Below are positions 1-36,209 of a stretch of DNA of 64,000 bases, piece after piece (the first letter of the stretch is position 1; every line of letters starts with the position of its first letter). A model generated the notes under the pieces. It was given only the letters and a program-made list of their open reading frames with translations, had not been told where the DNA came from and did no database searches. Source of the stretch: Mustelus asterias (taxonomy: Eukaryota). The translations under genes were made by a program, and so were the position numbers. The DNA lies in contig NW_027590479.1 in NCBI RefSeq assembly GCF_964213995.1, positions 1-64,000 of the forward strand, written 5' to 3'.

Positions 1-627
1 TGGCCTCTCCCCATTATGAATTCTCTGGTGTTTCAGCAGGTCGGATGAATCAGTGAATCCCTTCCCACAATCAGAGCAGGTGAACGTCCTCTCTCCAATG
101 TGAACTCGCTGGTGTTTCAGCAGGATAGAAGAGGTAGGGAATCCCTTCCCACACTCAGAGCATCTGAATGGTCTCTCTCTAGTGTGAACTCTCTGGTGTG
201 TCAGCAGGATTGATGAGGTAGCAAATCCCTTCCCACACTCATGACAGTTGAATGGCCTCTCCCCAGTGTGAACCCACCGGTGTTTCAGCAGATGGGATGA
301 ACAAATGAATCCCATCCCACACTTGGAGCAGGTGAACGGTCTCTCCCCAGTGTGAACTCGTCGGTGTGTCAACAAGATGGATGAGGTAGTGAATCCCTTC
401 CCACACTCAGAGCAGGTGAATGGTCTCTCTCCAGTGTGATTGTGTCGATGAGTTTTCAGTTCAGATGGAAATCTGAATCTCTTCCCACAGTCTCCACATT
501 TCCATTGTTTCTCCCTGTTGTGACTGCATTTATGTTTCAACAGGCCAGATGATCGGCTGAATGTTCGTCCACACACAGAACACGTGTACGGTTTCTCTCC
601 ACTGTTAACCGTGCTTTCCCCTTCCAT
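1..627 (-). CDS. C2H2 zinc-finger gene A (KRAB-less); 3' end lies outside the window
   Basis: Manual translation from ATG at 627 gives [36 protein letters not shown]...[10 protein letters not shown]...[16 protein letters not shown]. The frame stays open for 209 codons (7 fingers) to the window edge. Splice acceptor ttttacag|GATATTAG, with the exon starting at 736. Confidence 0.9.
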
Positions 628-1289
628 GTTTGAAACCCAATGATATTCAGATTACACTAATTTAGGCGATAGCGTCAGATCCTGATGCGATGTTTGGTTT
701 GAGTTTTCTCCCTTCCACTCCTGCACTTCTAATATCCTGTAAAAAAAAAGTCCAAAGTTAAAAATTGAAGCAAATATTTCTCTTGGTTTGAGTTTACTGT
801 GTGTAAATCCTCCCCTTCTCACCCTCTGGAAAAGGAGACTCCAAAATCCATCAATGTCAGTCCAGGATAGAAATTCACATTTTCTCACAGGGACAGTGAT
901 AACCGTGCCTGTGTCCTGCCCCCGAGAAAGATGACAGCCATTAACCCAAGTCTATCAGTGTTTCTCCTTCACTATTTCATGTGATGTGGGTTTTATTGCC
1001 AAGACCAGAATTTATTTCCTGCCCCTGAGGAGGGCAGTTCGAGACTGAATCGCACGTTGACAAGTCTATGGAAAGACAGCAGATTCCCATGAATAAACAG
1101 GATGGGTTTTTTAAATTGTTCACAGCTGTAATGGTTACTCAAGTGAAATTATATTCCAGATTTTCCAGCGTTTTGTGAATTCTATTTAAACCCCCCCAGC
1201 TCCATGATGGGACTTGAACCCCTGTCCCCAGAACATTAGGCTGTGTCACTGATATTACCACCACCTCCCCGATTGTAGAGGTGCTGCAA

Positions 1290-1560
1290 TTACCCCCCGG
1301 GTCGGTGCAAACTCGGGCCCGGGGGTTCCTTATTCTGGGTTTGAGGCCTCCTCCACTGGCTGTTTCTGAAGCCTCTGCACTCACTTCCCTGCCTCCCTGC
1401 AGCTCCAGCACCCACACTGCGCATGGGCCAGTCCGAATCCGCACAGCGCATGCTCCACTCAGAATCAGGTACTGCGCCTGCGCAAGCGACTGCTATTGTG
1501 ACAATACGGCACAGTCTCTCTCGCTGCGAATGCTGGGTAAGAGGACCGCCATAGGAAGGA
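1290..1560 (-). promoter_or_regulatory. CpG-rich promoter with NRF1-like motifs, probably for ZNF gene A
   Basis: ACTGCGCATG (~1416), AGCGCATGCT (~1445) and ACTGCGCCTGCGCA (1471); locally high CpG; same motif set as the other two ZNF promoters. Confidence 0.6.
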
Positions 1561-1799
1561 GATAATGTTCAACACAAAATTGTATTTTGTCATCCAATTA
1601 CAATCAGAACTACAGGGTTAATATATAAAATTATTAAACCAATTGATACATCTACCAATGTGCATGGTGGGATTGTTACTGGACGAGCATTCCAGAGACC
1701 CAGGGTCCTTTTCGAGTCTACCCCACTCTGTCGTAGGTTGCAGCAAGATATAGTTGGGTTGGTCACATGGGCAGAACAGTGATAGACTTCGAAATATAT

Positions 1800-2756
1800 C
1801 ACCATTCCTTCACAGTCACTGGGTCAAAATCCTGGAATTCCCTCCCTTACCGCATTGTAGGTAAACCCACAGCACATATACTGCAGCGATTCAAGAAGGT
1901 AGCTCACCACTACCTTCTCAAGGGCAACTAGGGATGGCCAGCGAGCGATGCACATGTCCCACAAATGAATAAAAAAAATATGGTATTTAACCTTGATAAG
2001 TGCGAAGTGATGCACTTTGGAAGAAGCAACAAGACAGGAAATAATTAATGAAAGGAAGGACACGAGGTAAAATCAGAGGAGCTTGGGGTACTTATTCACT
2101 TAAGGTAGCAGAGCAGGCGAATAGAATAGATAAGAAGGCATATGAGACACTTGCTTTTATCAGTGGTGGCATACAGTATAAGAACATGGAGATAATGTTG
2201 GAGCTGTACAGAATGTTGGTTAGGCCACAGCTTGAGTACTGTGTGCAGTTCTGGTCACCTCACTATAGGAAGGGTGTGATTGCACTGGAGGGGGTACACA
2301 GGAGATTCACCAGGATGTTGCCTGGGATGGAACATTTGAGCTATAAGGAGACTGGATAGGTTTAGAGTGTTTAGAGCAGAGAAGGCTGAGGGGGACATGA
2401 CTGTGGTGAATAAGATTATGAAGGATATGGACCGGGTGAGTAGAACCCTTGGTTGAGGGGGTCAAGCATGAGGGGACATAGCTTTAGGGTGCCAGACAAG
2501 AGATTCAGGGGGGAGTTGAGAAAAAAAAATCAGAGGGTGGTGGGAATCTGTAATAAACTGCCTGGGAAGGTAGTGGAGGCTGGAAACGTAACAACCATTA
2601 AAAAGTATTTGGATGAGCACTTGAAATATTATAGCATTCAGATAAGGATATGGAACAAGTGCTGGAAAATAGGATTAGCATGGGGTTTAGTGGTAGCTAT
2701 TGTTGGTGCAGACTCTGTGGGTCGAAGGGTGTTTTCTGCACTGTATGACTATGACT
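1800..2756 (+). mobile_element. LINE 3' fragments (a short CR1/L2-group tail, then a CR1 ORF2 C-terminus)
   Basis: ORF 2048-2359 contains the CR1 motif LYRMLVRPQLEYCVQFWSPH; short-repeat tail (tatgac)n near 2745. Confidence 0.85.
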
Positions 2757-4311: not shown

Positions 4312-5336
<1,025 letters not shown>

Positions 5337-6239
5337 GTTCAAAATCCAATGATACGCATATTACGATAAATTGGGCGACTCTGTCAGATCTTGATGTGAT
5401 GTTTGGTTTCAGTTTTCCGACTGCAAATCCTCACCTTTGAATATGCTGTGAAATTGATTTAAAAAAGAAAAAAAGAGAGTGAGAGAGAACCCACAAAAAC
5501 ACAAAGGCAGGTTGTGAAATTGAGCTGAATGAATCTGGTAATTTGTGGGGCCGGCACTGGGAAAAAGAGACCAAGAAAACTGATGGATTGTCACAAAAAC
5601 CCAACTGGTTCACTAATGTCCTTCAGGGAAGGGAACCTTTGAGCCAGTCTGAACCTATACAAGACCAGAGCTTCAATGTGAAGAGGCAGCGGATGGGCGG
5701 GATTAAGAGATGTGGGAGGAGAAGAGGTGAAGGAGTGGATACATCAACAACCAGACAGAAACTCCCAAACCCTCAACCTCCACCATTTAGAAAGACCAGG
5801 TTCACAGGTGAATGTGAACATCATCACCTCAAAGTCACACAGCATCGCGACTGGACTGAGATCCTGTCCTGGATTAGGAGAAGTTTCCTCCATTTAAAGA
5901 GTGAGAAACATGAAACAATTGTCTTCAGTCCGTGCTACAAACTCCACCCCGTGGACACTGACACCATCCCACTCTGGTGCTGAAGCAGGCTGTTTACAAC
6001 CAGGTTCAAATATTTATTTTCTAAATCTGACTTTGCAGGGTCGACAAGGCCGTTTCCCGTGCCAAGGCCCATGCCTGGTCTGCCCATTTCCATACCTTTT
6101 TAGTAACTTTGTACTAGTTGGGTACAACTGAGTGGCTTGCTGTGTCATATCAGAGGGAATTTAAGATTCAACCAGGGAGCTGACAATGATTCTGAAGGGT
6201 TTGCGGATCCACAAAGTGTTTCCAAATCCTCCCAGCCAC

Positions 6240-8045: not shown

Positions 8046-8530
8046 TGGGGAGAGAGTGTGTGGGATGGAGATTTACAGCTTTTGGGGAATGAGAGAGGAA
8101 AGAATGTTCCATAGAAATTGTCTGTTCTGAATTTCTATCCTGTACTGACACTGATGACTTTTGTAAACTCATTTTACAGGATATTGAAAGAGGAATCACA
8201 GGCCGAAATCTCAAACGTCACGTCCAGACGTGACAGAATCATATTCCTTGGGACCTCAATATCATCGGACTTTGAATCCAGAAGGAGAAATGATTGTCCA
8301 GTCTGTCAATTTGAAAAGATTTGAAATGTCAGTGTGAGTGAAAAAGCATCAACACACTGCCACACTCGAGTGAGAGTGTTCCAATGCACTGACTAAAGAG
8401 CTTTAACCAGTTACACAGTCTGAATAAATATCACACCATTCACAGCGGGGAGAGACTGTAATCTTGTTCTGTGTGTGGACGAAGTTTCAACTGATTGTCC
8501 ACCCAAGAGAGAGGCAAGGACACCTGCACC

Positions 8531-8953
8531 ATGGAGAAACCATGGAAATGTGCGGACAGTGGGAAGAGATACAGAGCCCCATGTCTGCTGGAAGCTCATC
8601 GGCGCAGCCACACTGGGGAGAGGCCGTTCATCTGCTCTCAGTGTGGGAAGGGATTCATTCAGTCATCCCACCTGCAGTCACACCAGCGAGTTCACACTGG
8701 AGAGAGACCATTCACCTGCTCTCAATGTGGGAAGGGATTCACTCAGTTATCCAGCCTGCAGACACACCAGCGAGTTCACACTGGGGAGAGGCTGTTCACC
8801 TGCTCTCAGTGTGGGAAGGGATTCACTCGGTTACCCGACCTGCGGACACACCAGCGAGTTCACACTGGGGAGAGGCCATTCACCTGCTGTCAGTGTGGAA
8901 AGGGTTTCAGCGTTTCATCCCGGCTGCTGAGACACCAGCGAGTTCACGAGTGA
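8531..8953 (+). CDS. C2H2 zinc-finger gene C (4 intact fingers plus 1 with CxxS)
   Basis: ATG at 8531, [12 protein letters not shown]...HQRVHE*; acceptor ttttacag|GATATTG at ~8180. Confidence 0.85.
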
Positions 8954-10949: not shown

Positions 10950-11345
10950 GGTGATTGGGAAATTCTGCAGGGGTGGTGATTGAGGAGGGGGTTGGGTGGA
11001 GCTCTGCAGGAGTCCTGATGGGGGAGAGAGCTAGTGATCGGGGAAACTCTGCAGGGGTGGTGATTGAGGAGAGGGTTAGGGGGTGGAGCTCTGCAGGAGT
11101 CCTGATGGGGGAGAGAGCTGGTGATCGGAGAAACTCTGCAGGGGTGGTGATCGGGGAGGGGGCGAGAGGGGGAACTCTGCAGGGGTGGTGATTGAGGAGA
11201 GGGTTAGTGGGGGGAGCTCTGCAGGAGTCCTGAAGGGGGAGGGAGCTGGTTGTCGGAGAAACTCTGCAGGGGGGGCGAGAGGGGGAACTCTGCAGGGATG
11301 CTGATTGGGGGGAGGGGTTGGTGATTTGGGGGAAACGCTACAGAT
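10950..11345 (+). repeat. G-rich minisatellite of alternating ~42-44 bp subunits built on CTCTGCAGG
   Basis: Recurrent (a/g)ctctgcaggggtggtgattgaggag and gagctctgcaggagtcctgatggggga units. Confidence 0.85.
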
Positions 11346-11759
11346 GAGGAGATTGGCGGGGCGATTTCTGTGGGGAGGGGGGGATGTCCACTGAAGATGG
11401 AAACTGGGAGAATGGAGCGCATGCACAATGACACCCCTCCAGATCAGCAGCTGGCTTCCCCAGCAAGTTTAGGTTCCTCCCCTTCCTCCTGCAGTGAGTA
11501 TTATATTGTGACTGTTTTTGACTAAGTGCCACAAGATTGATTTTTTAAATTTGCCCAAGAAACGAGTTTGAAACTTTTCTCACTCATTCAGCACTTCGAA
11601 TTTTTTTCATGAAATTCCACCCGATGTCTTTTGGTTCTAAACCAGTGGAAACAGACATGCATTTTATCAAAACCTCTCAAAAGTTTGAATATCTCTATTA
11701 AATCTTTCCTTAACCTTTCCTGCTCTATAGAGTGCAATTCCAGCTTCTCTAATCTCTCC

Positions 11760-13830
11760 ATATGGATTATCCATCCTGAGGTCCCTAGTATCACAGATGC
11801 CCATCTTCAGCCAATTCGATTCACTTCAAGGGATATCAATAAACTGCTGAAGGCGATGGATAAGGAAAAATCCAAACTGGCCAACTGCCCTCCAATGTCT
11901 CGAGTCTCGCTCATCAGCAAAATGATGGAAGATGTTGTTGCCAACGGTGCGATCAAGCAGCATTTATACAGCAATAACCTGCTCACTGATGCTCATTTTG
12001 GGTTCCACCGAGGACCACTCACCTCCTGCCTCATTTACAGCCTTTGTCCAAACATGGACAAAAGAGTTGAACTGGGTGATGTTGGAGTGATTGCCATTGA
12101 CATCAAGGCAGCGTTTGACTGTGCGTGGCATCGAGCAACCCTATTAACATTGAAGTCAATGGGAATCAGGGGGAAACTCTCCACCGGCGAGAGCCACATC
12201 CCGCACAGAGGAGGATGATCGCGGTTGTTGGAGGCCAATCATCTCAGCCCTAGGGTAGTGTCCGAGGCCCATCCATCCTCAGTTGCTCCACCAATGACCC
12301 TCCCCCCATCATAAAGTCAAAAGCGGAGCTGTTCATTGATAATTGCAGTCCTCATGACTGAGAATGATACCAGGGATGAGGATTTTGTTTTATTCTTTCA
12401 GGGGATGTGAATGTGACTGGCAAGGCCAACATTCGTTGTGCATCACTGATTGCCCTTGTGAAGAAAGTGAGCCACTTTCTTGAATCGCGGCAATCCATCT
12501 GGTGTAGGTATACCCACAACGCTGTTAGGGAGTTCCAGGAATTTGATGCAGTGACAGAGAAGGAATGGTGATTGATTTTCAAGTCAGAATGGTATGTGAT
12601 GTGGAGTACAATTTGCAGATGGTGGCATTCCCAAACGCTTGCTGCACTTGTTTTTCAAGTGGTAGAAGTTAGGGTTTGGAACATGCTGTGAAAACAGCCT
12701 TGGTGATTTCTTGCAGTGCATCTAATATGTGGGATACACTGCCACCATTGTGGGCTAATGGTGGAGAGTGAATGTTTAAGGTGGTATTTGAGATGCTGAT
12801 CAGGCGAGCTACTTTGTCCTGGATAGGATCTACAAAATTGTTGCAGATACACTCATCCAGGTAAAGAATATTCCCCCTTACTCCTGATTTATACCTTGTG
12901 AATCATGGCAAGCCTTTGGGGAGTCATTAAGTGAGTAACCTGCCACAAAACTCCCAACCTCTGATCTGCTCTTGTAACCTCAGTATTTAAATGACTGGTC
13001 AATGGTAACCCCAAAGTTATTGCTGGTGGGGCATTCACTGATGGTAATGCCATTGAATATCATGGGAAGATGGTTCGATTTTCTTGCTGGAAATAGATAT
13101 TTCCTGATAATTATGTGGTGTCAATATGAATTGACAATCAGCTCCAACCTGAATGTTGTCCTGGTCCTGCGCTGCATGCGGGCAGCTTCAGTATTCAGAG
13201 TTGTGAATGGTCATATACACTGCAATCATCAGTGAACATCCCCGTTTCCGACCCTACGGTGGGGAGACGGTAATTAATGAAGCCGCTGAAAATGATTAGG
13301 CCCAGGAGACATGAGGAACAACAAAATATATTTATATAGCGCCTGAAAGTAATAAAACATCCAAGGAGCATTGTAAAATAAAGTATGACATTGAGCCACA
13401 AAGAAGATATTTGGTTAGATGACCAAAAGTTTGGTCAAAGTGGTAGATTTTAAGGGGTGTGTTAAAGGAGTAAAGCGAGGTGGAGAGTTGGAGACATGTA
13501 GGGATGGTATTCCAGAGGTTGGAGCCGAAGCAATTGAAGGTAGAGCTTGCAATGGTGAAGCAAGGTCAGGGACAAACTAAAGACCAGAATTAGAGCAGTG
13601 TAATATATTGAGGGTTGTGGGGCTTATAGGAGATTATAGATATTGGGACAGGCAAGGTCATGGAGTGATTTGAGACCAAGGATGAGAATTTTAATATTAA
13701 GTTGTTGCTTTACTGGGTGGATCATCGTGCACAAGGGTGATAGTGGAATAACACTTAATGTGAGTTTAAACATGGCCAGCAGAGTTTTAGATGAACCCTG
13801 CAGTGACTCTTGCAGTGATGACTGACCTCC
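11760..13830. mobile_element. Degraded non-LTR (CR1/L2-group) retrotransposon fragments in both orientations
   Basis: RT motifs ISKMMED...HLYSNNLLTDAHFGF...DIKAAFD in ORF 11631-12218; inverted 3' parts follow. Confidence 0.7.
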
Positions 13831-14019
13831 AACAACCACAGCCATCATCGTCTGTACCTGGTATATCCCCAACCGGTGGAGAGTTCCCCCCCGCCAAATC
13901 CTACCGACTCCAACCCTGTGTCGGTCCCTTTCTGCCAAACTCAGTCAAATGGTGTCTTGATGGATTTTCTTTGTTCTTTTTTTTGTTTTCTTTAAAGAAA
14001 ACAAAATTTTCTTTGTTCT

Positions 14020-21654: not shown

Positions 21655-24600
21655 TGAGACACCAACAAGTTCACAGGGGTTGGATTCTGCTGTTATTGTT
21701 TCTGCTCTCAATTACATCCAGGACTGCATTTTGTTCATTCTCACAGTTGGTCAATGGGGAGGGTCGGGGGGTTTCTTTCTGCTGGACTGGCCGGTCTCAT
21801 GACTTTGCCTCCAGTGGGCTGATGCTCTTTGAGACTTGTTGCGAATACCTCGTTTCAAATTTCACACGGATCACAGAGTGACCGGGTGTGAGGAAATTCA
21901 GAGATACTTAGTCAGCATTTCTGTTTGAAACCTCCCCAAATGCCCATCCAATTTCCTTTGTAATTGTTTATTGTCTCCACTTCCTCCACCCTCATAGGCA
22001 GCGAGTTCCAGGTCATTACCGTTCACTGCATCAAAATATTCTTCCTCACATCCCCCGCTGCATCTCTGACCCAAAACCATAAATCTGTGTCCCCCTCGTC
22101 CTTGTTCCATCAACTAATGAGAACAGCTTTTCTTTGTCCACCTTATCTAAACCTGTCAGAATCTTGTCCACCTCTATCAAATCTCCCTTCAACCTCCTTT
22201 GCTCCAAGGAGAACAACCCCAGCTTGACATTGACAATAAAGAACAAACTAACAGAATATGTTAATACCTGAAATCAAATGGGAATGTTTAATTTCTGTTT
22301 TAAAGATATTGTGAATATATTGTCTTGGACAATAAAGAAATTGGAATAACTCAACTTGGGTGTGGTTGAATGAAATATATCAATCTGGTATCCACCTACA
22401 GTCCAGTGAAAGTCTGGAATGTGTAGCTGGAAATCCCTCCCTAACAGCACTGTGGGTGTACTTACACCTCAGGCATTGTAGCAGTTCAGGAAGGCAGCGT
22501 TGGGGTTGACCATGGCCGAGGCAGCTACATACAGCCACATGTTCTGTTATAATTGAAGGACTGCAGATTGAATGTGAGGCATTGTGGGACTGGACTATCT
22601 TGACCACATTCCTGTGACTGCTCAGTTTCTGCAATCACGGACCATTAAAGCTGCTTAGCAGGGCCCCAACAGAGGACCTGGTGAGAATATTTATTCAGAA
22701 TGAGTTTGAATTAAACTTATCCCAGGACCGGCTAGTGTTCAGCGGCTGAGATTCCTGAATCTGTGAAGAGGAGGTCTGACCAATCAACAAACAGTGGCAG
22801 ATAGTTGGTTAAGAAGTTAAAAAGCGTTCTCAGGCATTGTTTAAATTATTTTATCCCAAATTTGTGATAAGAACTGTGAGGGACTTGTGACCCGTTAGTC
22901 GGTGCAGTAACGGTATTCTCCAAATAGCACTGGACTGAAAAGCAGACCTCAGAGTAGATTCTAATGGTTATAAACTGACCCAAGCATGGCCAGTGAAAAA
23001 AATCAAAGCTCGAGTGAGGACTGGACAGGTCTCTTACCTGCTGTTTGGAAACTAAGAACAAGAAACTTATCGATAAAATTATTAGAGAATACAGCTAACG
23101 TTTCAAGTCTGGAAGACACTTCATAACAGCTCTTATGAAGGGTCATCCATACCTGAAACATTGGCTCCATTCTCTCTCCACAGATGCTGTCAGACCTGCT
23201 GAGCTTTTCCAGCATTTTCTGTTGTTGTTTCAGGTTCCAGCATCCACAGTATTTAACTTTTATGATAAAATGATTCGGTCTGATTGGAATCCCCACCACC
23301 TTCCTGCAAAACAGAGGGAGTGGTGGCAAAAGGGGAAAAAGGATAAGGATGATAAAGTCTGGGTTCTGATTCTCTGAGCCCATGTAGAATCAACAAAATG
23401 AGTGAAGCAGTTTATAAAGAACAGAAGTTATCCATCCCTAACAAAAACTGATCAAATAAAAATAATTAGGTTGTGGAATATAACAAAAAAATTAAGAGAT
23501 GACGATTACAATCTAGTTTGTTTTGATTTTTATACTTGTGTAAAGTGGTATTATTGAGGGCCAAATTTTTTCTGCTCACTCCCCATCCCTTCAGGTTCTG
23601 TAGAAAAGTTAACCCTTTCAGCAGACAGTTCATTTGTTTTCAAATCATCTGAAAACTCATGTCTATTTTAGTTTATAATTGAAGATTTATGGGAATTGGC
23701 TAAGATAGGCTTTCGGCACTTTTAAAGTATAAAAAAGTGGTCTTGGGAAGGCAATTTGGTAGAGAGAGGTGGAGGGAGAGATGTTTACAGAGAGGTGTTG
23801 AGAGCTGTTGGTTTTACAAGTTATCCACGTTTTTGGAGCGGTCACTTCATGTCCTGGTCTGAGAGGGATGGAGAGAAGTCTGTTCAATTGTTAAAGTTAA
23901 ACTTTCTCTATTAACTGTTAATCGACACTCTGTTTTTTATCTTTCTGACTTGATACATTTTTAATGATTAATAAACTTTCTGAATTCACCATTTAAAGTG
24001 TTCTTTCTTGCCACATGGTCAAGACACTGGAACCTGGTGTGATTTACGATGAGGGAGGTTTTTGTAAACAAGAGAACCCCCATAAATCTTAGTTCAAATA
24101 AATCAAAGTTCTTACAAATGGAATGCAATCTTTTATTACGAGAGAAATTGACCGCAGAAGTAAAGATATTATGCTTCAGTTATACAGGGCGTTGCTGAGA
24201 CTGCATCTTGAATACGTGCAGTTTTGTCTCCTATTTAAGAAATGATACAAATGCATTGAAAGTGGTTCAGAGGAGGTTTAATCGATTGCTTCCCAATTCT
24301 TGACCCTCACAGGATATATTTTGTCCGATTTTTCTTGTCTTCATCTCTGACAAAGAGTAATCCTGACTCAAAATGTTGTCTCTATTCTCTCTACAGATGC
24401 TGTCAGACTTGCTGAGATTGTCCAGCATTTTCTGTTTTTGTTTCAGATTCCAAAAACAGCAGAATTTTGCCTTTATACTGATTCTTGTTCGATAAGGGCA
24501 TCAAAAGTATCAGGTATAGCACGAGAACGCAACACAAAAAGATCAGCCATGATCTAAATAAACGGTGGAGCAGACTCAAAGGGCCAAATGGCCAATTTCT

Positions 24601-26040
24601 GCTCCGATGTCGAATGTTGGTCACAAATTCCTGAGAATTGTGAAACAAGGCTGGAAGATTCGCCTTGCTTGTGTTAGTGGGAAAATGTCCAGGAGAACCA
24701 TCACTGTGAAGGACAGTTCTGGGATTAAAGGTTGTCAGACTGGAAAAGGAAAACAATGGAAATAAACCCTTGAGGAGTGAAAAATCACTTTGGGCTGGTT
24801 TTTGGAGAAAGAGTGTCAACATTCCAAGGCAGAGTAAAATATATCCATTGAGTGGATATTTAATGGTGTTCAGAGTAAAAGGGCAAAGTTTAATTTTACA
24901 GTTTAAGGACTATGTTCCCTTCAAAAAAGTGTTTAATCATTGTTGCCTCCAGTTTGTTGGAGTAAACATCAGAAAACTTGAAGTTTTGTCATGTGAATCT
25001 TTAATTTGTTTACTGGGTTCAGAATTCATTTTTAAAAATTGTTGATCGTCAGAGATGCTAACAGTTCATTTAAAGCCACACGTTTTGACTTCCCATTTGA
25101 GCCTGTGGCACCTTTCTGTCTCTCTATTGCTCGTGTCAATGACAGCCAGGCGACGGAGCTGAGGGCTGAATTTAGCTGAGAATAATGGGGCCTGCGTCCC
25201 AGTTGGGAAACTGCCCTGGGCGTCGCACTAATGGAGAGACAGGAAAGTGTTGGAGGACTGAGTGGGAAATGGGCCTCCAACCAATTGTTATATCAGTCAC
25301 TCAGAACTAAAGAGAAACCTGTCTCTTTAAATACAGATACAGGGAAGAGGCTGCACTGAAATCTGCTCTTCAAACCTGCACAAAAGCAGGAGGCTGAGAT
25401 TGACAGGCTGCGGGAGGAGTCCATTCAGCCCATCGTGCCCCTGCTATCTCTTTGAAAGGACTCTGATTCATCCAACTGCTCTGTTCTTTCCTGCTCTGTG
25501 CTTTTGCTACCAAATAAACCTGTTGGACTTTAACCTGGTGTTGTTAAACTTCTTACTCTGTTCTTTCCCCACAGCCCTGCAAATTCTTCCCTTTCAAGTC
25601 TTTACCCTTTGGAAAGATTCGCTTGAATCTGCTTTCAGGCAGATCAGAACAACTCGCTGTGTCAAACAATAAAATAAAATCTCATCTCCCCCTCTGGCTC
25701 CTTTGGCAATTACCTTAGAGGGATTCACTTTCTGTTAAAGAGCCTGCCAACCCCTCTCACCCACTTTCCCTAAAGTGCATCAATTTCATCAGGAAAAATC
25801 CAGAACAGTCAAATATTTTTACTGATAAAAGTTTATCAATGAAACAGAACATGGTTAAAACAAACAGAAAATGACTTGAGGATCAAAGACAACCAGAGTA
25901 AAAGGATGTTCACAATGTTCTGGACACAAATGGTTTCTCTTTATCTGTTCCCTGACCTCTTTGTGGTAAAGGCAGAATTCTCTGGATAGTAAATTTAAAA
26001 AGAAGTTTATTGAATGAAAAAGGTTCACTGAACAACTGAA

Positions 26041-26315
26041 CACAGTGGCATAGTGGTTACTGCTGCCTTACAGCGTCCTGGCTTGGGTCCCTGTCTGTGT
26101 GGAGTCTGCACATTCTCCCCATGTCTGCATGGGTTTCCTCCGTGTCCTCCGGTTTCCTCCCACAGCCCAATGATGTGCAGGTTAGGTGGATTGGCCATGC
26201 TAAATTCTCATTCAGTGTACCTGAACAGGCGCCAGAGTGTGGCAACTCGGGGAATTTCACAGTAACTTCATTGCAGCGTGAATGTAAGCTTCTTTGTGAC
26301 TGATAAATAAACTTT
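26041..26315 (+). mobile_element. HE1-type tRNA-derived SINE (partially deleted)
   Basis: cacagtggcatagtggtta head, tctgtgtggagtctgcacattctcccc core, aataaataaacttt tail. Confidence 0.85.
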
Positions 26316-26725
26316 AAGACATTGACTTTCACAGCTTCATGCGGGTGATCAGTCTGTAGAAGAGTAACCCTCTCTGGCTCCTTCTTTGACAGGAATTTCC
26401 TTGGAACTCAGCCTTTGGAGTCTTCAGAATTTGGTTCACAAGGAAAACCTTCAGAACCTCTACTTTTATCCCCAAAGTGACCGTTACCACACGTCAGAGT
26501 TGGGCCTGTTGGAACATGACAATTGGTCAATTTGGTCACCAGATTAATTGAATTGGATCCTCAATTACTGACACCACTTTCTCTCATTATCTTAGACAGG
26601 AATACAAGAGAACTGGTTCATACTATCCCTTTATCTGATTCTATACAATCCCTTATTCACACAGTTTCAAATGTTGAGGCTAATCAGAGTTTGAAGATCT
26701 CTCTCGCCAGTACACTACGCCAGCT

Positions 26726-27031
26726 GCGGCACAGTGGCACAGTGATTAGCATTGCTGCCTCACAGCGCCAGGGATCTGGTTTCGATTCTCGTTTTGGGTC
26801 ACTGTCCATGTGGTGTCTGCACGTTCTCCCCGTGTCTGCGTGGGTTTCCTCCAGCCGCTCCTGTTTCCTTCCCCAGTCTGAAAGACGTGCTGGTTTGGTG
26901 CATTGGTCATGCTAAATTCTCCCTCAGTGTAACCCGAACAGGCGCCGGATGTGGTGACTAGGGGATTTTCACAGTCACTTCATTGCAGTGTTAATGTGAG
27001 CCTACTTGTGACACAAATAAATAAACTTTAA
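26726..27031 (+). mobile_element. HE1-type SINE, full length
   Basis: A-box-like tggcacagtgattag, B-box-like ggtttcgattc, conserved core and tail. Confidence 0.9.
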
Positions 27032-27389
27032 AAATTTATCTTCATTGCACATTCGTTACATACACAGCAATTAAGATTTTACATTTTAACAGCAAATAAA
27101 AACTCAGTCTTTTACTATAACGACTGATTCATTAATTGTAACTCAATTGAGGATCACTGCTTATTCAATCACCATGATGCCCCTCCGTGGCCACAGGTAT
27201 CCTTAATGGTAGGCATGAACCCAGAATGTTTGAGTGATTCAGGTAGATGACTGAAAATTCAGTAAAGAAACTCTCATGTCTGTTTGAGCTACATTGCTGG
27301 AAGTAAGCTTACCAGCGCTGCTCCAATTACGTTTGCATAATGAATATGGAGTTTAGGGAATGCAGTTGATGAAAAGATCAATAATTGTC

Positions 27390-28238: not shown

Positions 28239-28632
28239 TTTCGGGTAGCTTTGTTTGTCGAGTTTGTCAAAATCAGTTGTCACCCCTTGAATTATTTGAA
28301 TTAATTTCCAGTCATTTGATAGCGATAAGGAGGTTTACAAAAAATGAGAGGTTGGTATAACAAAGAGACGGAAGCAATGAGACAGAGTTATGATGAAAGT
28401 CACATGAGACACAGAAGGAACCAGAAAATGCGATTCTTTACAGCTCTCATTTATTGGCGGGGAATATCCATCAGTTCCGGCAGCGTAGCCAATCCTGTCT
28501 CTGGGAAATGCCCCTCAGTTTCTCAAAAAATAAACCCAGATTATAACAGGGGCTACCCTTTACACTGGATTGGAATTATCGGCAGAATTAGAGCATTTTG
28601 TTACTTTGCATCGAGATGTATACCCGGAAACC

Positions 28633-29088
28633 ATGTGTTCTCCATGCTCCTTACTGATTATAATGATCTTGCTGCCCGGCGGGTCCATTATTAAATGGTA
28701 ACCATGTCATCCAGTGGTTATTTTTAAACCCTGACTTTTGAGCTAATCTGTATTTACGTGACATGAATGAGTGGCAAAACTTCAGTGTTCCAGGTTCATT
28801 TCGAATTAACAATTCGGGAAGGACAGTGTGGACTGGACTGCCGTTACTTGATAACCTGCACTACCCTAACTCTACTCTGGTACATGCAGTATTCCGGGGA
28901 AGCTCCAAGATATTTCCTGAAGAAATATAGCTTAGGGGGTTACGAAAGGTCCCCAAACGGAGGTTTTCTGCAGATTTGCAGAAGGGAAATGAAACAGTTC
29001 CTTATATCTCGCTGTCGGATACTGCCGTGTATTTCCGTGCGATGGAGCACACACTGATACAGAGATAGAGCGGATCCAGTCCGAAACC
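28633..29088 (+). pseudogene. TCR alpha/delta-type V pseudogene (inverted relative to its neighbours)
   Basis: Leader MCSPCSLLIIMILLP (28633-28678) with a GC donor and an apparently mutated acceptor (ACAT). V exon SVFQ...LDCRY...LLWYMQYSGEAPRYFL, then a frameshift into RRFSADL...SLSDTAVYFRAME with the second Cys as CGT (29036). RSS remnant CACACTG(29050)-23-TCCGAAACC. Confidence 0.85.
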
Positions 29089-29112
29089 CCCCAGAATGGG
29101 GGTTCCAGTTGG

Positions 29113-29131
29113 TGGCCAGAAGATGGCGCTG
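29113..29131 (+). promoter_or_regulatory. CTCF-like motif 24 bp 3' of the pseudo-V RSS
   Basis: TGGCCAGAAGATGGCGCTG, one mismatch to the core. Confidence 0.55.
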
Positions 29132-30243
29132 TCACACCGATCAATCGGGACAAGAATTAAACCCAGTGAGAGTCACAGAAAAGAACAAAACATAACCCCC
29201 CATAAGAAGAAGTGAGGGACACTTGCGGAATTGTATCAGTTGATTTTAACGCGCGTTCATAATAAAACTCGCCTTTGGAAATCTATTTGATCTATTTCGT
29301 TCACTTAGTGTTTTGAAGCTGTTTCCATGCCTCTCTGTAACATTAAACAACTCTTGTTCATCTCCCCTTTTAGATTTCTGGAGCCTTTGGCCCGAGACCA
29401 GTTCTCTGGTTTTATTTGATCAGAGTGTGTTGTTGGGTCAGAAACAGTTTATGAAAAATGAACAGATTTCAGAACTCATTGGCTTTGATCATTCAATTGA
29501 ATTTCACAATCTTTCCCGAACAGTATTCGAATATTCATCTGATTTACAGAAACGAGGAGCAGCGAGAAACAGATGAACAATGCGGATATGATAAGAAGTT
29601 TAATGCTACCCTGGTATTCGGTGGAGACAGTCAGGGAGATGTGGAAACTGGCTGCTCTGAACTTCGGATTTATTTGAGAAATCAAAGTCGCAACTTTATG
29701 AAATGTGTTCAGGGTGTGCAAGCTGTCTGGAATGTAGCAATAGTGATCAAATAAACGCTATGAACAGCTCACCCTCAAAGGCCCCCAGAAACTGAAAAGG
29801 GAGACGGAGCGAGTGGTGTTCAATATGGTAAGCAGGCATGGAAAAGGAAGGAAAGGACAAATAGGGACTTCGGGATCAGAGGACGTCGCACAGACATGGA
29901 GAACTGTCCGTCTGCTGTGTGTGTGGCGCTTCACGGTCAGGTTTGACGGATGTTTGGGATTTTATCACCCAGGTCTGATTTTAGAGGAATACAGAGTTGA
30001 TTAGCAGCAGAAGGGACGATTTAATTGACACATTCATTATGTGATGGACTTGTCGGCCTAAAACGGTTCTGCAGTTTGTTTCCTCGGCCTCTCCTGGAAA
30101 CAGTTGGGTGACAGTTGATCCGAGGTGAATATGGTTTCCTGTCGGTTTGTGTTTGAGCGGCTGACAGCGCCGCTGCTCATTGTGGCTGCATCTGCCAGAA
30201 CTTCTATACAGCAGCGAGGAGCTCTGACTTATCCTGCTGAGAC

Positions 30244-30282
30244 AGTTTTTGTACAGGAGTCAGACTGCTTTCCATCACTGTG
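30244..30282 (-). promoter_or_regulatory. 23-RSS of V segment 1
   Basis: CACAGTG (30282-30276), 23-nt spacer, ACAAAAACT (30252-30244). Confidence 0.97.
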
Positions 30283-30741
30283 AGGCTGAAAGCGCAGTAA
30301 TACACGGCCGCGTCAGACAACTGCAGATCCGAGATAGTCAAACTGATGGATTTCTTCGGGGTTTGGAGGTCAGTCGAGAAACGGATTTTAGCAAAATCTG
30401 CTTGATATTCATTACCCCCCGAGTTCTTTCTCAGTATGTACTCGGGCTGGGAGTCTGGATGCTGTCGATACCAGTATAAATTATAGCTGGTTTCTGCAGT
30501 ATCATAGTTGCAGTTTAATGTCACCGCGTCTCCTTCTGTCTTAACATCTGAGGACAGCGGCTGAGTGACAGAATCTCCATGGGTCAGACCTGGAAAATAT
30601 GTTCAGATAGATAAAGAATAGAGTGACGTCTACTCAACAGTAAGATTCAACCCAAGTTTTGGAAATGAGAAAACAAACGTGATGTACAGAAATACCTGTT
30701 AGAAATGCCCCCCACACAATCCAGGTGCCGAGTACCCGCAT
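30283..30741 (-). CDS. T-cell receptor alpha/delta locus V gene segment 1 (TRDV/TRAV-like), apparently functional
   Basis: Leader exon 30741-30696 (MRVLGTWIVWGAFLT), GT-AG intron 30695-30590, V exon 30589-30283 in frame: DSVTQ...TLNCNY...LYWYRQ...RFS...LTISDLQLSDAAVYYCAFS. Confidence 0.93.
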
Positions 30742-32317
30742 TGTCTCTGTCCGCTCTGTAAAGGAGGAATCGGATATTTGAAGACACCCATTCTAATCCC
30801 CACCCTTATTAATCTGATGACGAGTCTCAGAATGCTCACGCGTCAATTCCGTGTCTCGCCAGTGGCTCCGTGAGATTGATAATTGCTCAGATGACTGTTA
30901 GTGAATGGAAGCTCTCCAACCTGTCCTCCATTCGGTGTCCCTGTTGGGCGAATTGTTCCGCTTTGGAAACGGGATGTCAAGAAAAAAAAATCTTCATTTT
31001 GTTATTGGAACGGAGGAGCAAGGAGTGTTGATTGATTTGGTGGATTTCCAATCAATGTTCTGTGCACATTCTCTTAGCTTTCGCATCCGAGCATTAGTGC
31101 CTGAGACTCCAGTGAGAGTCCAGAGAACGGTGGAGGCTGAGGGCCACAGAATAATTTTAAAGCTGAGTGAAACCAACATTTTAACTAAAATTTATGCCAC
31201 GGTTCAAGAAGATCAAGGCAGCAAAGTGGATTTAAACGGAAGATCAGATGAACTGTAATCTGACTGAATGGTAGAGCAGATTTGCAGGCAGCCGAATTTT
31301 TATGTTCGAATGTTCAGATATCAGTGGATGGGCTGTGAGATACTTTGCAATCTTCGTTGTTTTACTAAAGGAACAGGGAAGTCGATCAGTGAGCTCCAGT
31401 TGCCTGTTTATTGTTCCTGAGATAATGTAAAAAGTGTACTGTGGATGTTGTACTGAAACTTCACCATGCCTGAAATCAGCAGGGTTAGGATATCAAATTG
31501 TTATAGTGCAGCTAATTATGACATTGCCTTTTCTTCAAAGGTCCTCTCAGGGACAACAAGATGCACTTGGTAGTTGTGGCCCCATCTCATATAATATACT
31601 GGGAAGTGTCAGCTTCAAGAACTTCCGTTTTTTCTTCTTAATCATTGTCAACATGGGGTCACTGGGAAAGTAATTCACGAACCCAGAATGATGCTTTGGG
31701 AAAAATAGTTCAATCCCATCATATCAACTGGTTACATTTAAATTCGATTGACGAGAAAAGTAGTCAAAATTCTACCCCAGCAGCTGGTTAAATTTAAATG
31801 TGATTAATTGATATTGAAAGCTACTCGCAATGATCGTTCCGAACGCGATCACTGCAAATCCACCTGGTTCACTAATGAACTTTGTGGAAGGAAATCTGCC
31901 TTCCTAGCCTAGCCTGGTCTGTGTGTGACTACAGAACAACTGTAGTCACATAACTAACTCTCAAATAGCCCAGCCAGTTTCGAGGACAATTAGTGATCGA
32001 CAAAATCTTGGACTTGTGACCGACACCCAATCAATATTTTTCTTTAAAAAGAGTAGTCATCATTTGATTAATAGTAATACCTAAATTACAGCAGTCAGGA
32101 GAACAGCATATTCTTTACTTTTAATTGGGAAGGAAACGCTAAGTGAAAAAGTGATATATTGACGAGCAGAGGTCCTTCTCCCGAATCAGTAACGTTGCAG
32201 CTCAGGAAATATTCTCCTGGAGTGGAAACACAGATTCACGCCCCCACAACGCTCATAGATCCACCCGCATTTCTGATACAACCAGTGCCAAACAAGTAAA
32301 TCAACAGAAATCTCTTC

Positions 32318-32610
32318 ATAGAATGCCTACAGTGCCGAAGGAGGCCATTCAGCCCATTAAGCTTGCACTGACAACAGTCACACCAAGGCCCTATCCCCGT
32401 AACCCCACGTGTTAATCTCCTAATCCCCCTAACACTAAGGGACATGACTATTCCACCTAACCTGCACATTTTTGGACTGTGGGTGGAAACGCACGCAGAG
32501 ACGGGGAGAAGGTGAAAACCCCACACAGACAGTTACCCAAGGCCGGAATTGAACCTGGGCCCCCTTTGCTATGAGGCAGGAGTGCCAGCCATTGTGCCAC
32601 CGTGTCGCCC
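32318..32610 (-). mobile_element. HE1-type SINE
   Basis: Reverse-complement head ccattgtgccaccgtgtcgccc, B box ggaattgaacc, and core. Confidence 0.85.
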
Positions 32611-32743
32611 ATTTACTAATACAGGATACATGAGGTGAGAGCAGAAAAAATGGGACTGCGTGGTTACTGCCAATAGCAGCGATATGCGAATGGTGCCAGA
32701 GGTTTTGCCGCCATCATTTCAAGTTGGGAGAAATATGTGACGA

Positions 32744-32761
32744 CTGCGCCCTCTGGCGGTG
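32744..32761 (-). promoter_or_regulatory. CTCF-like motif next to AP-1/CRE-like sites
   Basis: The - strand reads CACCGCCAGAGGGCGCAG; adjacent TGACTCA and TTACGTGACG on +. Confidence 0.6.
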
Positions 32762-33092
32762 ACTCAGGTTACGTGACGCTGTCCGCAAGTGCAAGGTTGT
32801 CGATGGGCCGTCTCCAGCGGGCTTTTACTGAGAGACGTGTTTTCAAACAATGCAACTATATAAATAGACGTGAGTGAAATATGAGTAACTTGAAAGAACA
32901 ATGCATTCAGGGTCATTTCTGAATCTCTTCCTTTCTGTCTTTCTCACAGCTTTTGACTTTGTATTTCGCACTCGTAATGTCTCACTTTCCTTCAATTCTC
33001 CTTTCATACTTTTCTGATTTGTTGTCCTCTGCCCGTAATCTTAAACCGAAAACCAATTCCAGGATTCTGACGCAAGGGTGCGGCGTTATGGA

Positions 33093-33430
33093 GAGCGCAG
33101 AGGTTAGCACTGCTGCTTCACAGCTTCAGGGACCTGGGTTCGATTCCCAGCTCGGGTCACTGTCTGTGTGGAGTTTGCACATTCTCCTCGTGTCTGCGTG
33201 GGTTTCCTCCGGGTGCTCCGGTTTCCTCCCACAGTCCAAAGATGTGCGGGTTAGGTTGATTGGCCATGCTAACATTGCCCCTTAGTGTCCTGAGATGCGT
33301 AGGTTAGAGGGATTAGCGGGTAAAATTAGCAGGGAAATGGGGTTGGGCTTTGGTGCGATTGTGGTCGGTGCAGACTCGATGGGCCAACTGTTCTCTTTCT
33401 GCACTGTAGCGTTTCTATGATTCTATGATA
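33093..33430 (+). mobile_element. HE1-type SINE with a CR1-like (tctatgat)n tail
   Basis: ggttagcactgctgc, B box gggttcgattcc, core and tail. Confidence 0.9.
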
Positions 33431-34019
33431 TGGTTCAAAATGAGGATGGTGTGCGGCTTGAAGGGGTGTTCTCATGCAGCTGTTCCTCTTATCCTTCTAG
33501 ATGGAAGAGATTCCGGGTTCGCAAGGTGCTGTCGAAGCAGGCTTGACGGATTAATATAATCACAATGTAAAGTATATGCATTAACTTCTAGTGTAGGATT
33601 GTGGTTTTGTTGGTTAACAAATAAGGAACTGTGGACGCCGTTATTTTTAAGCAGATTTGTTTATTGATGAGAAACGTTGTGCAAACATTGTTGCCCAGTC
33701 TGCCCAGAGACATTGGAATGCAATGATTTATAGAGTCCACTCTCTAGGCCTCTTGTGCCATCCACCTCCTGCTCTTCCAGTTACCATGCCCTAAGAGGGC
33801 ATTGGTGACCATGAATGTCCTTATCATTCTGTGACTGTTTATTTCAAATTATTCCAGCGGATTGCCATTGACCTCTGCAGTATTGTTGACCAGGCATCTG
33901 TTCCGTTCCCATCACCTGCCATCAGGAATACTGAAAGGATTTACACGGCACACAACCCCAGAATAGAGGGACGACACTATAGAACCGATTTGAGTTTAAT
34001 GTCTCTTTCCCGGGTGACT

Positions 34020-34690
34020 GTTTGCGTGCCAGGCAACCATCTTATGTGCACCCATCTGTATATGGGTACACGTAAGATGGGACTTAATAGACATTAAACC
34101 CCCACCCCATCAACATCCTGGGAGTTGACAGAAAACTGAACTGGACCGAGGAATATAAATACACTGGCTAAAAGAGCTGATCAAAGGTTAGGAATCCTGC
34201 GGCGAGTAACTCACCTCCTGACTCCCCAAAGCCTGTCCACCATCTACAAGGTACGAGTCAGGAGTGAGATGGAATACCCTCTACTTGCTTGGATGAGTGT
34301 AGCTACAACCACACTCTAGAGGCTCGGCACGATACAGGACAAATCAGCCCGCTTGATTGCTACCCATTCCATGAACATTCATTCCTGCCACCACAGACGA
34401 ACAGTGACAGCCGTGTGCACCATCTGCAGGATACACTGCAGCAACTCCCCAAGGTTTTTTTTAGGCAGCACAATCCAAACACACGAGCACTGCCATCTAG
34501 GAGAAGAAGGGCAGCGGGCACATGGGAACACCACAACCTCGAGGTTCCCTTCCAAGTTATTCTACATCCCTACATGGAAATATATCGTTGTTCCTTCACG
34601 GTCACTGTGCCAAATCACTGGAACTCCCTCACAACCAGCACAGTGTGTGTACCTGCACATCAGGGACCACAAGAAGGCAGTTCACCACCA
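34020..34690 (+). mobile_element. 3' part of a CR1/L2-group LINE
   Basis: Same family as the tails at 1800-1980 and ~12400-12560 (cgttccttcacggtcactg...ctggaactccct). Confidence 0.7.
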
Positions 34691-35155
34691 CACAATACAC
34701 CAATGTCAGCTGCGGGAATAGACTATCTTCGTGCTGCGAGGTGAGTCTCTGTCCCGGATTTATAATAATAGTCGTGTTGCTAAGTGAGTCTATGTGGCGG
34801 TTATTGTGCATTTCATTTGTTATGAACTCAGCAGACTTTGATCCATTCTGAATTTAGTTATAGGAACGAATGCCGAGGAGTCTGTGTCCGTGGGCTCATC
34901 TGAGTTAACAATTCTGGATGAACAGCCGGTAATTTTCTGCTCTATTGCCTCCACTTCTGAGCGCATCCTTCAACTGATAGCTCGATACTCCTGGTATCTG
35001 CTTACTATATAAATCGCGGCATGGGGTTTAGTCTCGAGATTTACCAAAGTGCTTCTATGATGATTTGAACAAGGTCAAATTGTCCGGTAAATAGAATCGC
35101 CGCCTTCGTGAACACGTGATCAAAACATCTTCATGGAGTTGTAAATACGCGCTGA

Positions 35156-35193
35156 GGTTTTTGTACGGGGTTTAGCTGTAATCTAATGCTGTG
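35156..35193 (-). promoter_or_regulatory. RSS of V segment 2 (22-nt spacer, 23-class)
   Basis: CACAGCA (35193-35187), 22 nt, consensus ACAAAAACC (35164-35156). Confidence 0.92.
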
Positions 35194-35681
35194 CCTCACT
35201 GCACAGTAATAGACCGCCCCGTCCTCCAAACTGAGGGCGCTTATATTGAGGGAGCCGCTCTGTGTGGACTTGTCAGTAGCCGCCAGATATCGTCCTGAAA
35301 CTTCATTTTCCTCCACTACGAATGCATTGGTAATAATCCATCTCGGTGGCTGTGCCGGTTTCTGCTGATACCATTGCATGTAGCTCATCTCCTTGTCTGT
35401 ATAGTTACAATCCAACTGCACCGAATCCCCTTCTGATGCTGTTATTGTCACCGGTGACTGAGTTACTGGATCTGCGCACAGTCCACCTGTAAAGGTAGAG
35501 GAATTAAATATCAAGAGTTCATGTAAATTTATAGTTTTTGGAACCTCCCATCTACACCTCACATGGATATTTTTGATGGTTAATTAAATTGGCATCTTTG
35601 TGTATAAATATGTTTCCGTGGTTTGATGAACGTTGTCCGGTACTTACTGTGCAAGAGCGCCGCCAGAATGATCAGAAACAT
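35194..35681 (-). CDS. T-cell receptor alpha/delta locus V gene segment 2 (TRAV-like), apparently functional
   Basis: Leader exon 35681-35648 (MFLIILAALLH) with GTAAGT donor, intron to 35487, V exon 35486-35194 in frame: DPVTQSP...EGDSVQLDCNY...WYQQKP...LNISALSLEDGAVYYCAVR. Confidence 0.93.
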
Positions 35682-35951
35682 GTCCGAGTGGATTTATTTC
35701 AGTGAATGAGAATGGAGGAGTCAGAGAGTGAGAAAGAGAGCGGGAACCCAGACTCTGCTCCGTTGATTGCAGTGTGTGAGTGAGTGTGAGTCAGTTTGTC
35801 TGTGTGGGTGTAATTGTGGGGAGGGGAAGTGGAGTCTATTGTGACCTCAGCAGCCTACCATCCATACAGGCTCCAGTGATAATGTCACGTGAGATTGTAG
35901 CACCGCCCCTCCCCCCAACATCCCTCCCCACTCCAAAACCGGGCTCGAGAT

Positions 35952-35969
35952 TGGCGCCCTCTGCTGACA
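35952..35969 (-). promoter_or_regulatory. CTCF-like motif ~270 bp upstream of V2, near CRE-like and E-box promoter motifs
   Basis: The - strand reads TGTCAGCAGAGGGCGCCA; TGACCTCA at ~35842 and CACGTG at 35887. Confidence 0.65.
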
Positions 35970-36209
35970 AATGTTGTTTAATGCAAGTTCGCATTTGGCT
36001 GTTGAGTCGATTCAGGGTTTACTCCAACACATACCAAGGCACAAATGCTGCCCAGGAATCCGAATTGGTGCTCTGTAGAAAGTCCTTGTTACGTTTCCTA
36101 CTTACATCGTAAAATGATGCTAAACCTGCGGGCATCATTCCTGGAATTCTCTGTTCAAATCCCGGGTACACCGAAGTCCAGAGCATACCAAGACTTTGGA
36201 AAAAGTGCG

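What the first reader, a model, noticed from the sequence alone, without database searches (positions are those of the whole stretch)
1..35970. Intact TCR alpha/delta V segments whose RSSs face a KRAB-less zinc-finger gene cluster
Seen: two V genes with intact leaders, splice sites and RSSs on the - strand. Immediately on their 3' side lies at least 22 kb of C2H2 ZNF genes with CpG promoters, and no D, J or C was found in the 30 kb downstream. Known: V segments normally join downstream D/J segments by deletion. Inference, three options. (1) The ZNF cluster is embedded in the shark TCR alpha/delta locus, so V(D)J joining would delete ZNF genes clone by clone in T cells. (2) These Vs recombine by inversion with a D-J-C to the right. 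(3) They are orphons. Option 1 would be an unusual coupling of receptor choice to transcription-factor gene dosage.
Basis: partly seen in the sequence, partly recalled or inferred. Interest (0 to 1): 0.8.

Follow-up and report, generated by a model that had tools for sequence, protein, structure and literature searches.

The report
Multiplied shark T-cell receptor delta locus
Two intact T-cell receptor gene pieces sit in a shark chromosome region where receptor pieces, antibody genes and zinc-finger genes are interleaved and the usually single receptor-delta unit occurs 19 times, so immune-cell DNA cutting would likely flip or delete zinc-finger genes as bystanders.

Summary
Observation confirmed: two intact TCR alpha/delta V genes (minus strand) face a KRAB-less ZNF block. 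The junction recurs in 6 other places (94-98%), so it is no misassembly. They are not orphons: 39 and 21 close paralogues lie in the shark antigen-receptor complex, interleaved with ZNF blocks, IgH miniclusters and NARTCR modules. The window starts at a contig end, so their own partner is unknown; of 14 paralogues sharing a scaffold with a C gene, 8 are in inversion and 3 in deletion geometry. ZNF blocks lie 5' of both TRAJ arrays (29 ORFs on C71), so upstream same-strand V-J joins would delete them, as at human IGL; no function for this is shown. Unexpected: 19 open TCR-delta C copies (at least 10 loci), 17 with a free or pre-joined D, two TRAC genes 73% identical, five germline coding joints and two germline signal joints, one using a V2-family signal. 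One RNA-like contig shows a V1-family V-D-J-delta join. The scan noted V-beside-ZNF before on other DNA of this genome; I found no note or held paper on multiplied TRD (three key nurse shark papers not held).

The parts
1..651 (-). C2H2 ZNF ORF, 7 fingers, runs off the contig end
   Evidence: 98% identical to a ZNF upstream of TRAJ at C71:17,983,349
1351..1550 (.). CpG-rich patch, candidate ZNF promoter (untested)
4494..5360 (-). C2H2 ZNF ORF, 8 fingers, no KRAB; 23 full-length copies at 97% or more in the genome
6201..6500 (.). CpG-rich patch, candidate ZNF promoter (untested)
8495..8950 (+). short C2H2 ZNF ORF, 4 fingers
16953..17915 (-). decayed ZNF copy (broken fingers, no Met)
19551..20050 (.). 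CpG-rich patch upstream of the 9-finger gene
20720..21571 (+). C2H2 ZNF ORF, 9 fingers, no KRAB
11134..27193 (+). ZNF-side block 99% identical to C447:262,976-280,045 (same contig)
27190..27196 (.). breakpoint between ZNF-type DNA and the V module; shared by 6 other copies
30244..30282 (-). 23-RSS of V1 (1 mismatch)
30283..30741 (-). V1: TCR alpha/delta V gene (leader, intron, V exon), open frame
35156..35193 (-). RSS of V2, 22-nt spacer, 2 heptamer mismatches
35194..35681 (-). V2: TCR alpha/delta V gene (leader, intron, V exon), open frame
28570..36462 (+). V1-V2 module, 97% identical to C447:184,709-192,622

Best explanation
The two V genes are intact members of a large, two-directional TCR alpha/delta V field in a shark antigen-receptor complex that holds 19 TCR-delta C copies and 2 TCR-alpha J-C units among ZNF blocks, and this pair would most likely join a D-J-delta or J-alpha by inversion, with ZNF genes flipped or deleted as bystanders. 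Shown: the gene anatomy, the interleaving, the copy numbers, free or pre-joined D segments at 17 of 19 delta C copies, and RAG-type joints fixed in the assembly. Inferred: segmental duplication of a unit (IgH minicluster, NARTCR and V genes, D-J-C delta, ZNF block) multiplied TCR-delta into IgH-like miniclusters; RAG acting in germ cells fixed some joins; same-strand V genes upstream of either TRAJ array would delete the ZNF block on that allele, opposite-strand V genes would invert it; the loss is tolerated because of the second allele and paralogues.
For: 39 V1-like (85% or more) and 21 V2-like (89% or more) copies among the 150 listed per search, on both strands. The gap-free contig also carries an IgH V-J-C set and NARTCR-type V modules. 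Junction repeated in 6 places. 19 delta C exons, all open, 0.1-11.8% apart over about 3.8 kb, 3 on scaffold C71; 11 have a free 12/23 D plus J, 5 a V pre-joined to D, 1 an IgH-D/TCR-D fusion, 2 undetermined. Two TRAC exons 73% identical, with 34 and at least 90 J. Geometry of 14 paralogues: 8 inversion, 3 deletion, 3 neither. 29 ZNF ORFs with 6 or more fingers and no V in C71:17.90-18.37 Mb, 16 of them in the gap-free part next to TRAJ; 4 such ZNFs between V genes and TRAJ on C546. A V2-family RSS fused head to head with a TCR-delta D RSS at C71:14,376,778; 3 such joints genome-wide, control 0. RNA-like run X1: a V1-family exon continues into an 11-nt match to the D of C106/C181 and a J start, in frame. 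Bystander precedent PMC9282919.
Against: The window's own partner is unknown: C447 is unplaced and begins at window base 1. Geometry rests on scaffold order and orientation, with gaps at C71:18,033,293 and C546:129,550; gaps between V and C on the other scaffolds were not checked. The C546 gap may hide a delta J-C, since two delta-type D segments lie just upstream of it. 46 of the 60 close paralogues lie on contigs with no C gene. The X1 evidence is one contig at depth 3, 8 differences in 161 from V1, from an unnamed organism, only guessed to be RNA, and only 30 of 54 loose letters are shown. Some of the 19 copies may be alleles (2 pairs differ by 0.1% or less). Redundancy is not shown for the TRAJ-proximal ZNFs: only 3 of 29 had a 95% paralogue among the 59 ORFs held. 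The signal joint at C71:14.377 Mb may record a deletion rather than an inversion.
Confidence: 0.7

Rival explanations
1. This V pair joins by deletion to a same-strand D-J-delta or J-alpha beyond the contig's left end and removes the window's ZNF block, still as a bystander effect.
For: 3 of 14 paralogues are in deletion geometry, all across ZNF-bearing DNA, among them the V1-V2 pair at C71:16.05 Mb and V2 at C546:32 kb. D-J-C clusters occur on both strands of the unplaced contigs.
Against: Both junction-bearing paralogues on a C-bearing scaffold (C71:14.43 Mb, C106:466 kb) are opposite in strand to every C on their scaffold; left of the C71 copy lie 40 kb of ZNFs and then a plus-strand delta remnant without a gap.
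Confidence: 0.2
2. ZNF loss is selected: V choice sets the ZNF dosage of each T-cell clone and changes its regulation.
For: Scale: at least 29 multi-finger ORFs sit 5' of one TRAJ array and 4 of the other; most had no close paralogue in the sample held.
Against: No expression or phenotype data; related ZNFs also lie outside the V-J interval and on other chromosomes; the 8-finger gene has 23 near-identical copies; human IGL shows the same arrangement without a known role.
Confidence: 0.06
3. The many copies are mostly assembly duplicates (haplotigs or false duplications) of a single ordinary locus, and these V genes are stranded, unused copies.
For: 16 of 19 delta C copies and most V copies are on unplaced contigs; two pairs differ by 0.1% or less; V2's RSS is degraded.
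Against: A diploid gives at most 2 alleles; copies differ by up to 11.8%, carry different D and J sets and different fixed joints, and 3 lie on one scaffold; the junction copies differ by 2-6%.
Confidence: 0.04

Closest known systems
Elasmobranch antigen-receptor complex (AgRC), Flajnik et al. 2025, PMC12227049 (parts 1-2 of 8 of the text, passages, whole Table S1)
   Same: TCR alpha/delta V exons scattered over megabases on both strands between IgH miniclusters, with NARTCR and Ig-like V genes.
   Different: The paper reports TCR alpha/delta 'as expected' in translocon form and Table S1 lists at most one delta C and one alpha C entry per species; here 19 and 2. It does not mention zinc-finger genes in text or in 2 supplements.
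Human IGL locus passengers ZNF280A, ZNF280B, PRAME, GGTLC2 (PMC9282919, passages covering the letter)
   Same: Non-receptor genes, two of them ZNFs, lie between V genes and J-C and are deleted when a distal V is used.
   Different: Four genes in a B-cell locus against tens of KRAB-less ZNFs around a T-cell locus; here many V genes are inverted, so flipping is as expected as loss.
Marsupial and monotreme TRM (TCR-mu) clusters (PMC7615758, passages)
   Same: A delta-derived TCR locus in repeated clusters (8-9 in marsupials, 15 C in platypus), with germline-joined V and ZNF genes at one flank.
   Different: TRM is a separate chain with its V genes inside each cluster; here conventional delta D-J-C units are multiplied inside a shared V field, mixed with IgH clusters and ZNF blocks.
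Newt TRA/TRD separation and duplication (PMC12698447, passages)
   Same: Two TRD C-J-V clusters, duplicated TRA in one species, a germline-joined delta gene.
   Different: Two copies on a chromosome apart from TRA; here at least 10 loci, three on the scaffold that carries a TRAC.
Germline-joined shark Ig genes (Lee et al. 2000, PMC2193156, abstract and outline only)
   Same: RAG-like joining fixed in germ cells of sharks.
   Different: Described for Ig light chains; here V-D-delta joints, an IgH-D/TCR-D fusion and retained signal joints in a TCR locus.

Membership tests
Functional TCR alpha/delta V gene | Split leader, GT-AG intron, open V exon with both Cys and the Trp | tested here: met
Functional TCR alpha/delta V gene | 3' RSS with 23-nt spacer | tested here: met
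   V1 23 nt, 1 mismatch; V2 22 nt, 2 mismatches, weaker
Functional TCR alpha/delta V gene | Closer to TCR alpha/delta V than to IgH V | tested here: met
   V1 51% to the V of a sawshark chain with delta-type C (P0163) against 33% to the local VH; V2 shares leader and framework with an alpha-C gene model (P0002)
Functional TCR alpha/delta V gene | This copy found rearranged and expressed | tested here: inconclusive
   one RNA-like contig of a V1-family gene, 95% to V1, joined to D and J; not this copy
Orphon V gene | Located outside the antigen-receptor locus | tested here: not met
   same gap-free contig holds other V, NARTCR-type and IgH genes; 98% paralogous flank on the C-bearing scaffold C71
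Elasmobranch AgRC | TCR alpha/delta V interspersed with IgH miniclusters, linked to TRAC/TRDC | tested here: met
   C447 itself is unplaced, linkage is by paralogy
Elasmobranch AgRC | Linkage to PSMB5 and UrIg2 | not tested
   no search left for it
Canonical single TRA/TRD translocon | One delta D-J-C nested just 5' of the J-alpha array and one C-alpha | tested here: not met
   19 delta C, 2 alpha C; no delta unit in 470 kb 5' of the C71 TRAJ array; C546 inconclusive because of a gap
TCR-delta D-J-C unit | D with 5' 12-RSS and 3' 23-RSS, few J with 12-RSS, C1 exon and TCR transmembrane exon | tested here: met
   11 of 19 complete, 6 with pre-joined D, 2 undetermined
KRAB-ZNF | N-terminal KRAB domain | tested here: not met
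   no KRAB hit in 4 of 4 ZNF ORFs and 2 upstream ORFs; a distant upstream coding exon was not excluded by transcripts
Passenger genes deleted by V(D)J joining (IGL type) | Genes between a same-strand V and J on one chromosome | tested here: met
   C71 and C546, each across one assembly gap
Passenger genes deleted by V(D)J joining (IGL type) | Deletion seen in lymphocyte DNA | not testable with these tools
   needs thymus or T-cell DNA

The most novel reading that the evidence does not exclude
TCR-delta in this shark works as an IgH-like multi-cluster system that RAG still remodels in the germline, and V choice leaves each T-cell clone with its own set of KRAB-less ZNF genes in a way that changes the clone's regulation. 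The multi-cluster anatomy alone I put at about 0.85 and use of several clusters at about 0.6; the probability given is for the whole statement, including the ZNF effect.
Probability: 0.06. Interest if true: 0.9.

Novelty: new variant of a known kind. Interest (0 to 1): 0.62.

Why it matters
Shark Ig genes are in miniclusters and shark TCR genes are described as translocons; a TCR-delta multiplied into ten or more units among IgH clusters blurs that line and makes three questions testable: how a T cell keeps to one delta chain with many loci, whether IgH-V/TCR-delta chimeras arise from neighbouring genes rather than across loci (one is fixed in the germline at C138), and how far germline RAG activity shapes a TCR locus. 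The ZNF part is a larger version of a known bystander effect: it predicts clone-specific loss or inversion of tens of ZNF genes in T cells, which is measurable, but nothing yet says it has a function.

Tried and rejected
Protein search with V1 for longer relatives: 0 of 77 candidates. Pfam DUF1968 did not find TRAC. PDB sequence searches gave only generic Ig/TCR hits. A V-end plus 23-RSS pattern meant to list V strands on C71 was swamped by a satellite on C6, so no full V list for C71 exists; a loose 12-RSS pattern was near its control (912 against 804) and served only as a pointer. Sequencing runs: no RNA holder listed; the lay across the ZNF-V junction was not carried out, so the junction was tested by paralogy instead. 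The profile search of representatives gave mostly multi-V gene models without names. My first reading of the C447 Ig exons as IgNAR (recalled) was dropped: the V has a canonical VH form and the J is IgH-type, as in the V-D-D-J-C cluster at C71:7.06 Mb; IgM versus IgW was not tested. 14 samples of 10 kb in C71:17.42-17.89 Mb showed neither V nor ZNF, so the nearest same-strand V upstream of that TRAJ array was not found; the nearest listed is at 16.48 Mb. Three nurse shark locus papers (PMC7909615, PMC7039070, PMC3222143) are not held. PMC5931798, PMC6795676 and PMC1845163 (passages) gave nothing on delta C copy number or ZNFs.
Full report
Observation. Both V genes are real and intact. V1 (ATG 30741, exon 30589-30283) has a near-consensus 23-RSS; V2 (ATG 35681, exon 35486-35194) has a 22-nt spacer and two heptamer changes, where its paralogues have 23 nt. 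Five ZNF genes lie in 1-21.6 kb: three long arrays, one short, one decayed; none of 4 scanned has a KRAB hit, and CpG-rich patches lie at 1.4, 6.3 and 19.8 kb. The window is the first 64 kb of an unplaced, gap-free contig of 312,993 bases (G000:C447), so nothing can be read beyond base 1. Public protein records on contigs of the same lengths as C71 and C546 are labelled Mustelus asterias by their source.

Not an orphon, not a misassembly. Each V search returned 150 matches (the listing limit); 39 are at least 85% identical to V1 and 21 at least 89% to V2, on both strands, on scaffold C71 (20.4 Mb) and dozens of unplaced contigs. C447 continues with more V genes, an IgH V-J-C set at 120.6-129.4 kb, NARTCR-type V modules at 165-168 kb, a 97% copy of the V1-V2 module at 185-193 kb and a second ZNF block from 199 kb to its end. 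The switch from ZNF-type to V-type DNA is at 27,193; a 4-kb query across it matches whole in 6 other places at 94-98%, the V side alone in over 20 more. This is the antigen-receptor complex described for four elasmobranchs, where TCR V exons lie between IgH clusters (PMC12227049); that paper does not mention zinc fingers in its text or 2 supplements.

Where the partners are. A perfect 12-RSS led to a J-alpha array of 34 segments at C71:18.371-18.417 Mb followed by C-alpha. A second C-alpha, 73% identical, lies on C546 behind at least 90 J in the 200 kb read. The transmembrane exon search gave 21 matches: the 2 alpha genes and 19 others at 65-68%. These 19 are delta-type: the one read in full has a 12/23 D, three J, a C1 exon and a transmembrane exon, directly behind an IgH V-D-D-J-C cluster and NARTCR-type genes, with no gap. 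All 19 C exons are open; over about 3.8 kb they differ by 0.1-11.8%, only two pairs by 0.1% or less, and three lie on C71. Even if every copy had an allelic twin, that is at least 10 loci (inference). Of the 19, 11 have a free D plus J, 5 have a V joined to a trimmed or whole D in front of the D's 23-RSS, 1 (C138) has an IgH D fused to a delta D so that VH-D precedes J-delta and C-delta, and 2 were not determined. C119 and C96 share one junction although their C regions differ by 1.1%, which points to joining before duplication, in the germline. Table S1 of PMC12227049 lists at most one delta C and one alpha C entry per species; two other sharks gave one delta C protein each, which is weak evidence of copy number.

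Geometry. By the established rules of V(D)J joining, a same-strand upstream V deletes what lies between, an opposite-strand V inverts it. Of the 60 close paralogues, 14 share a scaffold with a C gene: 8 inversion, 3 deletion, 3 neither. Both junction-bearing copies among them (C71:14.43 Mb, 98% identical flank; C106:466 kb) are in inversion geometry. Deletion is unavoidable for other genes: C71:17.90-18.37 Mb holds 29 ZNF ORFs of six or more fingers and no V, 16 of them in the gap-free 337 kb next to the J array, and on C546 same-strand V genes with good signals at 32-63 kb are parted from the J array by four ZNFs of 10-16 fingers and one 200-base gap. Five minus-strand V genes at C71:19.39 Mb could reach the J array by inversion across further ZNFs. 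Against this: all of it leans on scaffold order, two delta-type D segments at C546:113.6 and 120.8 kb suggest the gap may hide a delta J-C, and no full V list of C71 was obtained.

Are these V families used? In run X1 (97 million letters, guessed RNA, unnamed organism) three contigs cover only the V1 exon (11 of 29 bins, against 29 of 29 in the three other runs); one, at depth 3 and 8 differences in 161, has a 54-letter loose end at the V 3' end. Compared by eye, the 30 letters shown contain an 11-nt exact match to the D of clusters C106 and C181 and end in 6 nt of a J2 start, in frame if they adjoin the V. This is one contig and a paralogue, not this copy. For V2, the assembly holds a precise head-to-head joint of a delta D 12-RSS with a V2-family 23-RSS at C71:14,376,778; the 5.75 kb before it are 99.6% identical to an intact cluster up to the heptamer. 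A strict pattern found 3 such joints in the genome, control 0. Whether this one came from inversion or from loss of a whole delta unit is open.

Mechanism. Most likely (0.7) the region grew by segmental duplication of mixed units, which multiplied TCR-delta into miniclusters and put ZNF blocks on every side of V genes; this pair would join by inversion, others by deletion, with ZNFs as bystanders. The deletion reading for this very pair gets 0.2, a selected dosage coupling 0.06, assembly duplication 0.04. On dosage: the 8-finger gene has 23 full-length copies at 97% or more and the window's 11-27 kb block is 99% repeated on the same contig, but only 3 of the 29 J-proximal ORFs had a 95% paralogue among the 59 ORFs I held, so redundancy is not shown for them.

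Novelty. Scattered shark V genes and passenger deletion are known kinds. Clustered delta-derived loci are known for TCR-mu (PMC7615758), two delta clusters and a germline-joined delta gene for a newt (PMC12698447), germline joining for shark Ig (PMC2193156 abstract). I found no account of a shark with many delta D-J-C units, two alpha J-C units or ZNF blocks inside this complex in ten searches, which cover open papers only; three nurse shark locus papers were not held, and older work on multi-copy TCR genes in horned shark and skate is recalled, not read. Earlier scan notes cover V genes beside ZNFs and pre-joined NARTCR genes in this genome, none the multiplied delta locus in three look-ups. 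Verdict: new variant of a known kind, interest 0.62, carried by the locus architecture more than by the ZNF dosage idea.

Noticed in passing
G000:C138:217,394-218,397 (L168): An intact IgH-type VH is followed by an IgH D fused to a TCR-delta D (22/12 signals, no added bases seen), then J-delta and C-delta: a VH-TCR-delta chimera fixed in the assembly.
   Followed up: partly
G000:C850, C401, C119, C96 and C71:11.02 Mb (L169, L173, L172, L171, L157): V genes pre-joined to a TCR-delta D in front of its 23-RSS; four distinct junctions; the C401 V has a stop.
   Followed up: partly
G000:C71:14,376,778; C110:113,671; C8:50,402,752: Three precise head-to-head signal joints in the assembly: two at TCR-delta D signals, one in a cluster of repeated 12-RSS on C8 taken to be Ig light chain.
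   Followed up: partly
G000:C71:18,419,398 and C546:240,153: Two TCR-alpha C genes only 73% identical, each with its own J array (34 and at least 90 J).
   Followed up: partly
G000:C6:115,021,946-115,029,943 and probably beyond: A tandem repeat of about 37 bases whose unit reads as consensus heptamer, 23 bases, nonamer: a satellite made of 23-RSS-like units, 96 of the 100 listed matches.
   Followed up: no
   Followed up: no
L006-L007 (G000:C447:120,647-129,400): IgH V lies only about 400 bases before its J with no D found; C1-set exons follow.
   Followed up: no
window 41,029-44,500 (-): LTR-retroelement pol ORF of 900 codons with RT, RNase H and integrase domains.
   Followed up: no
window 48,700-58,100: Two long G-rich satellites (16- and 25-base units, GC skew above 0.8).
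   Followed up: no
G000:C71:18,419,800-18,431,700: About 12 kb of simple tandem repeat fills the intron between the C-alpha Ig and transmembrane exons.
   Followed up: no
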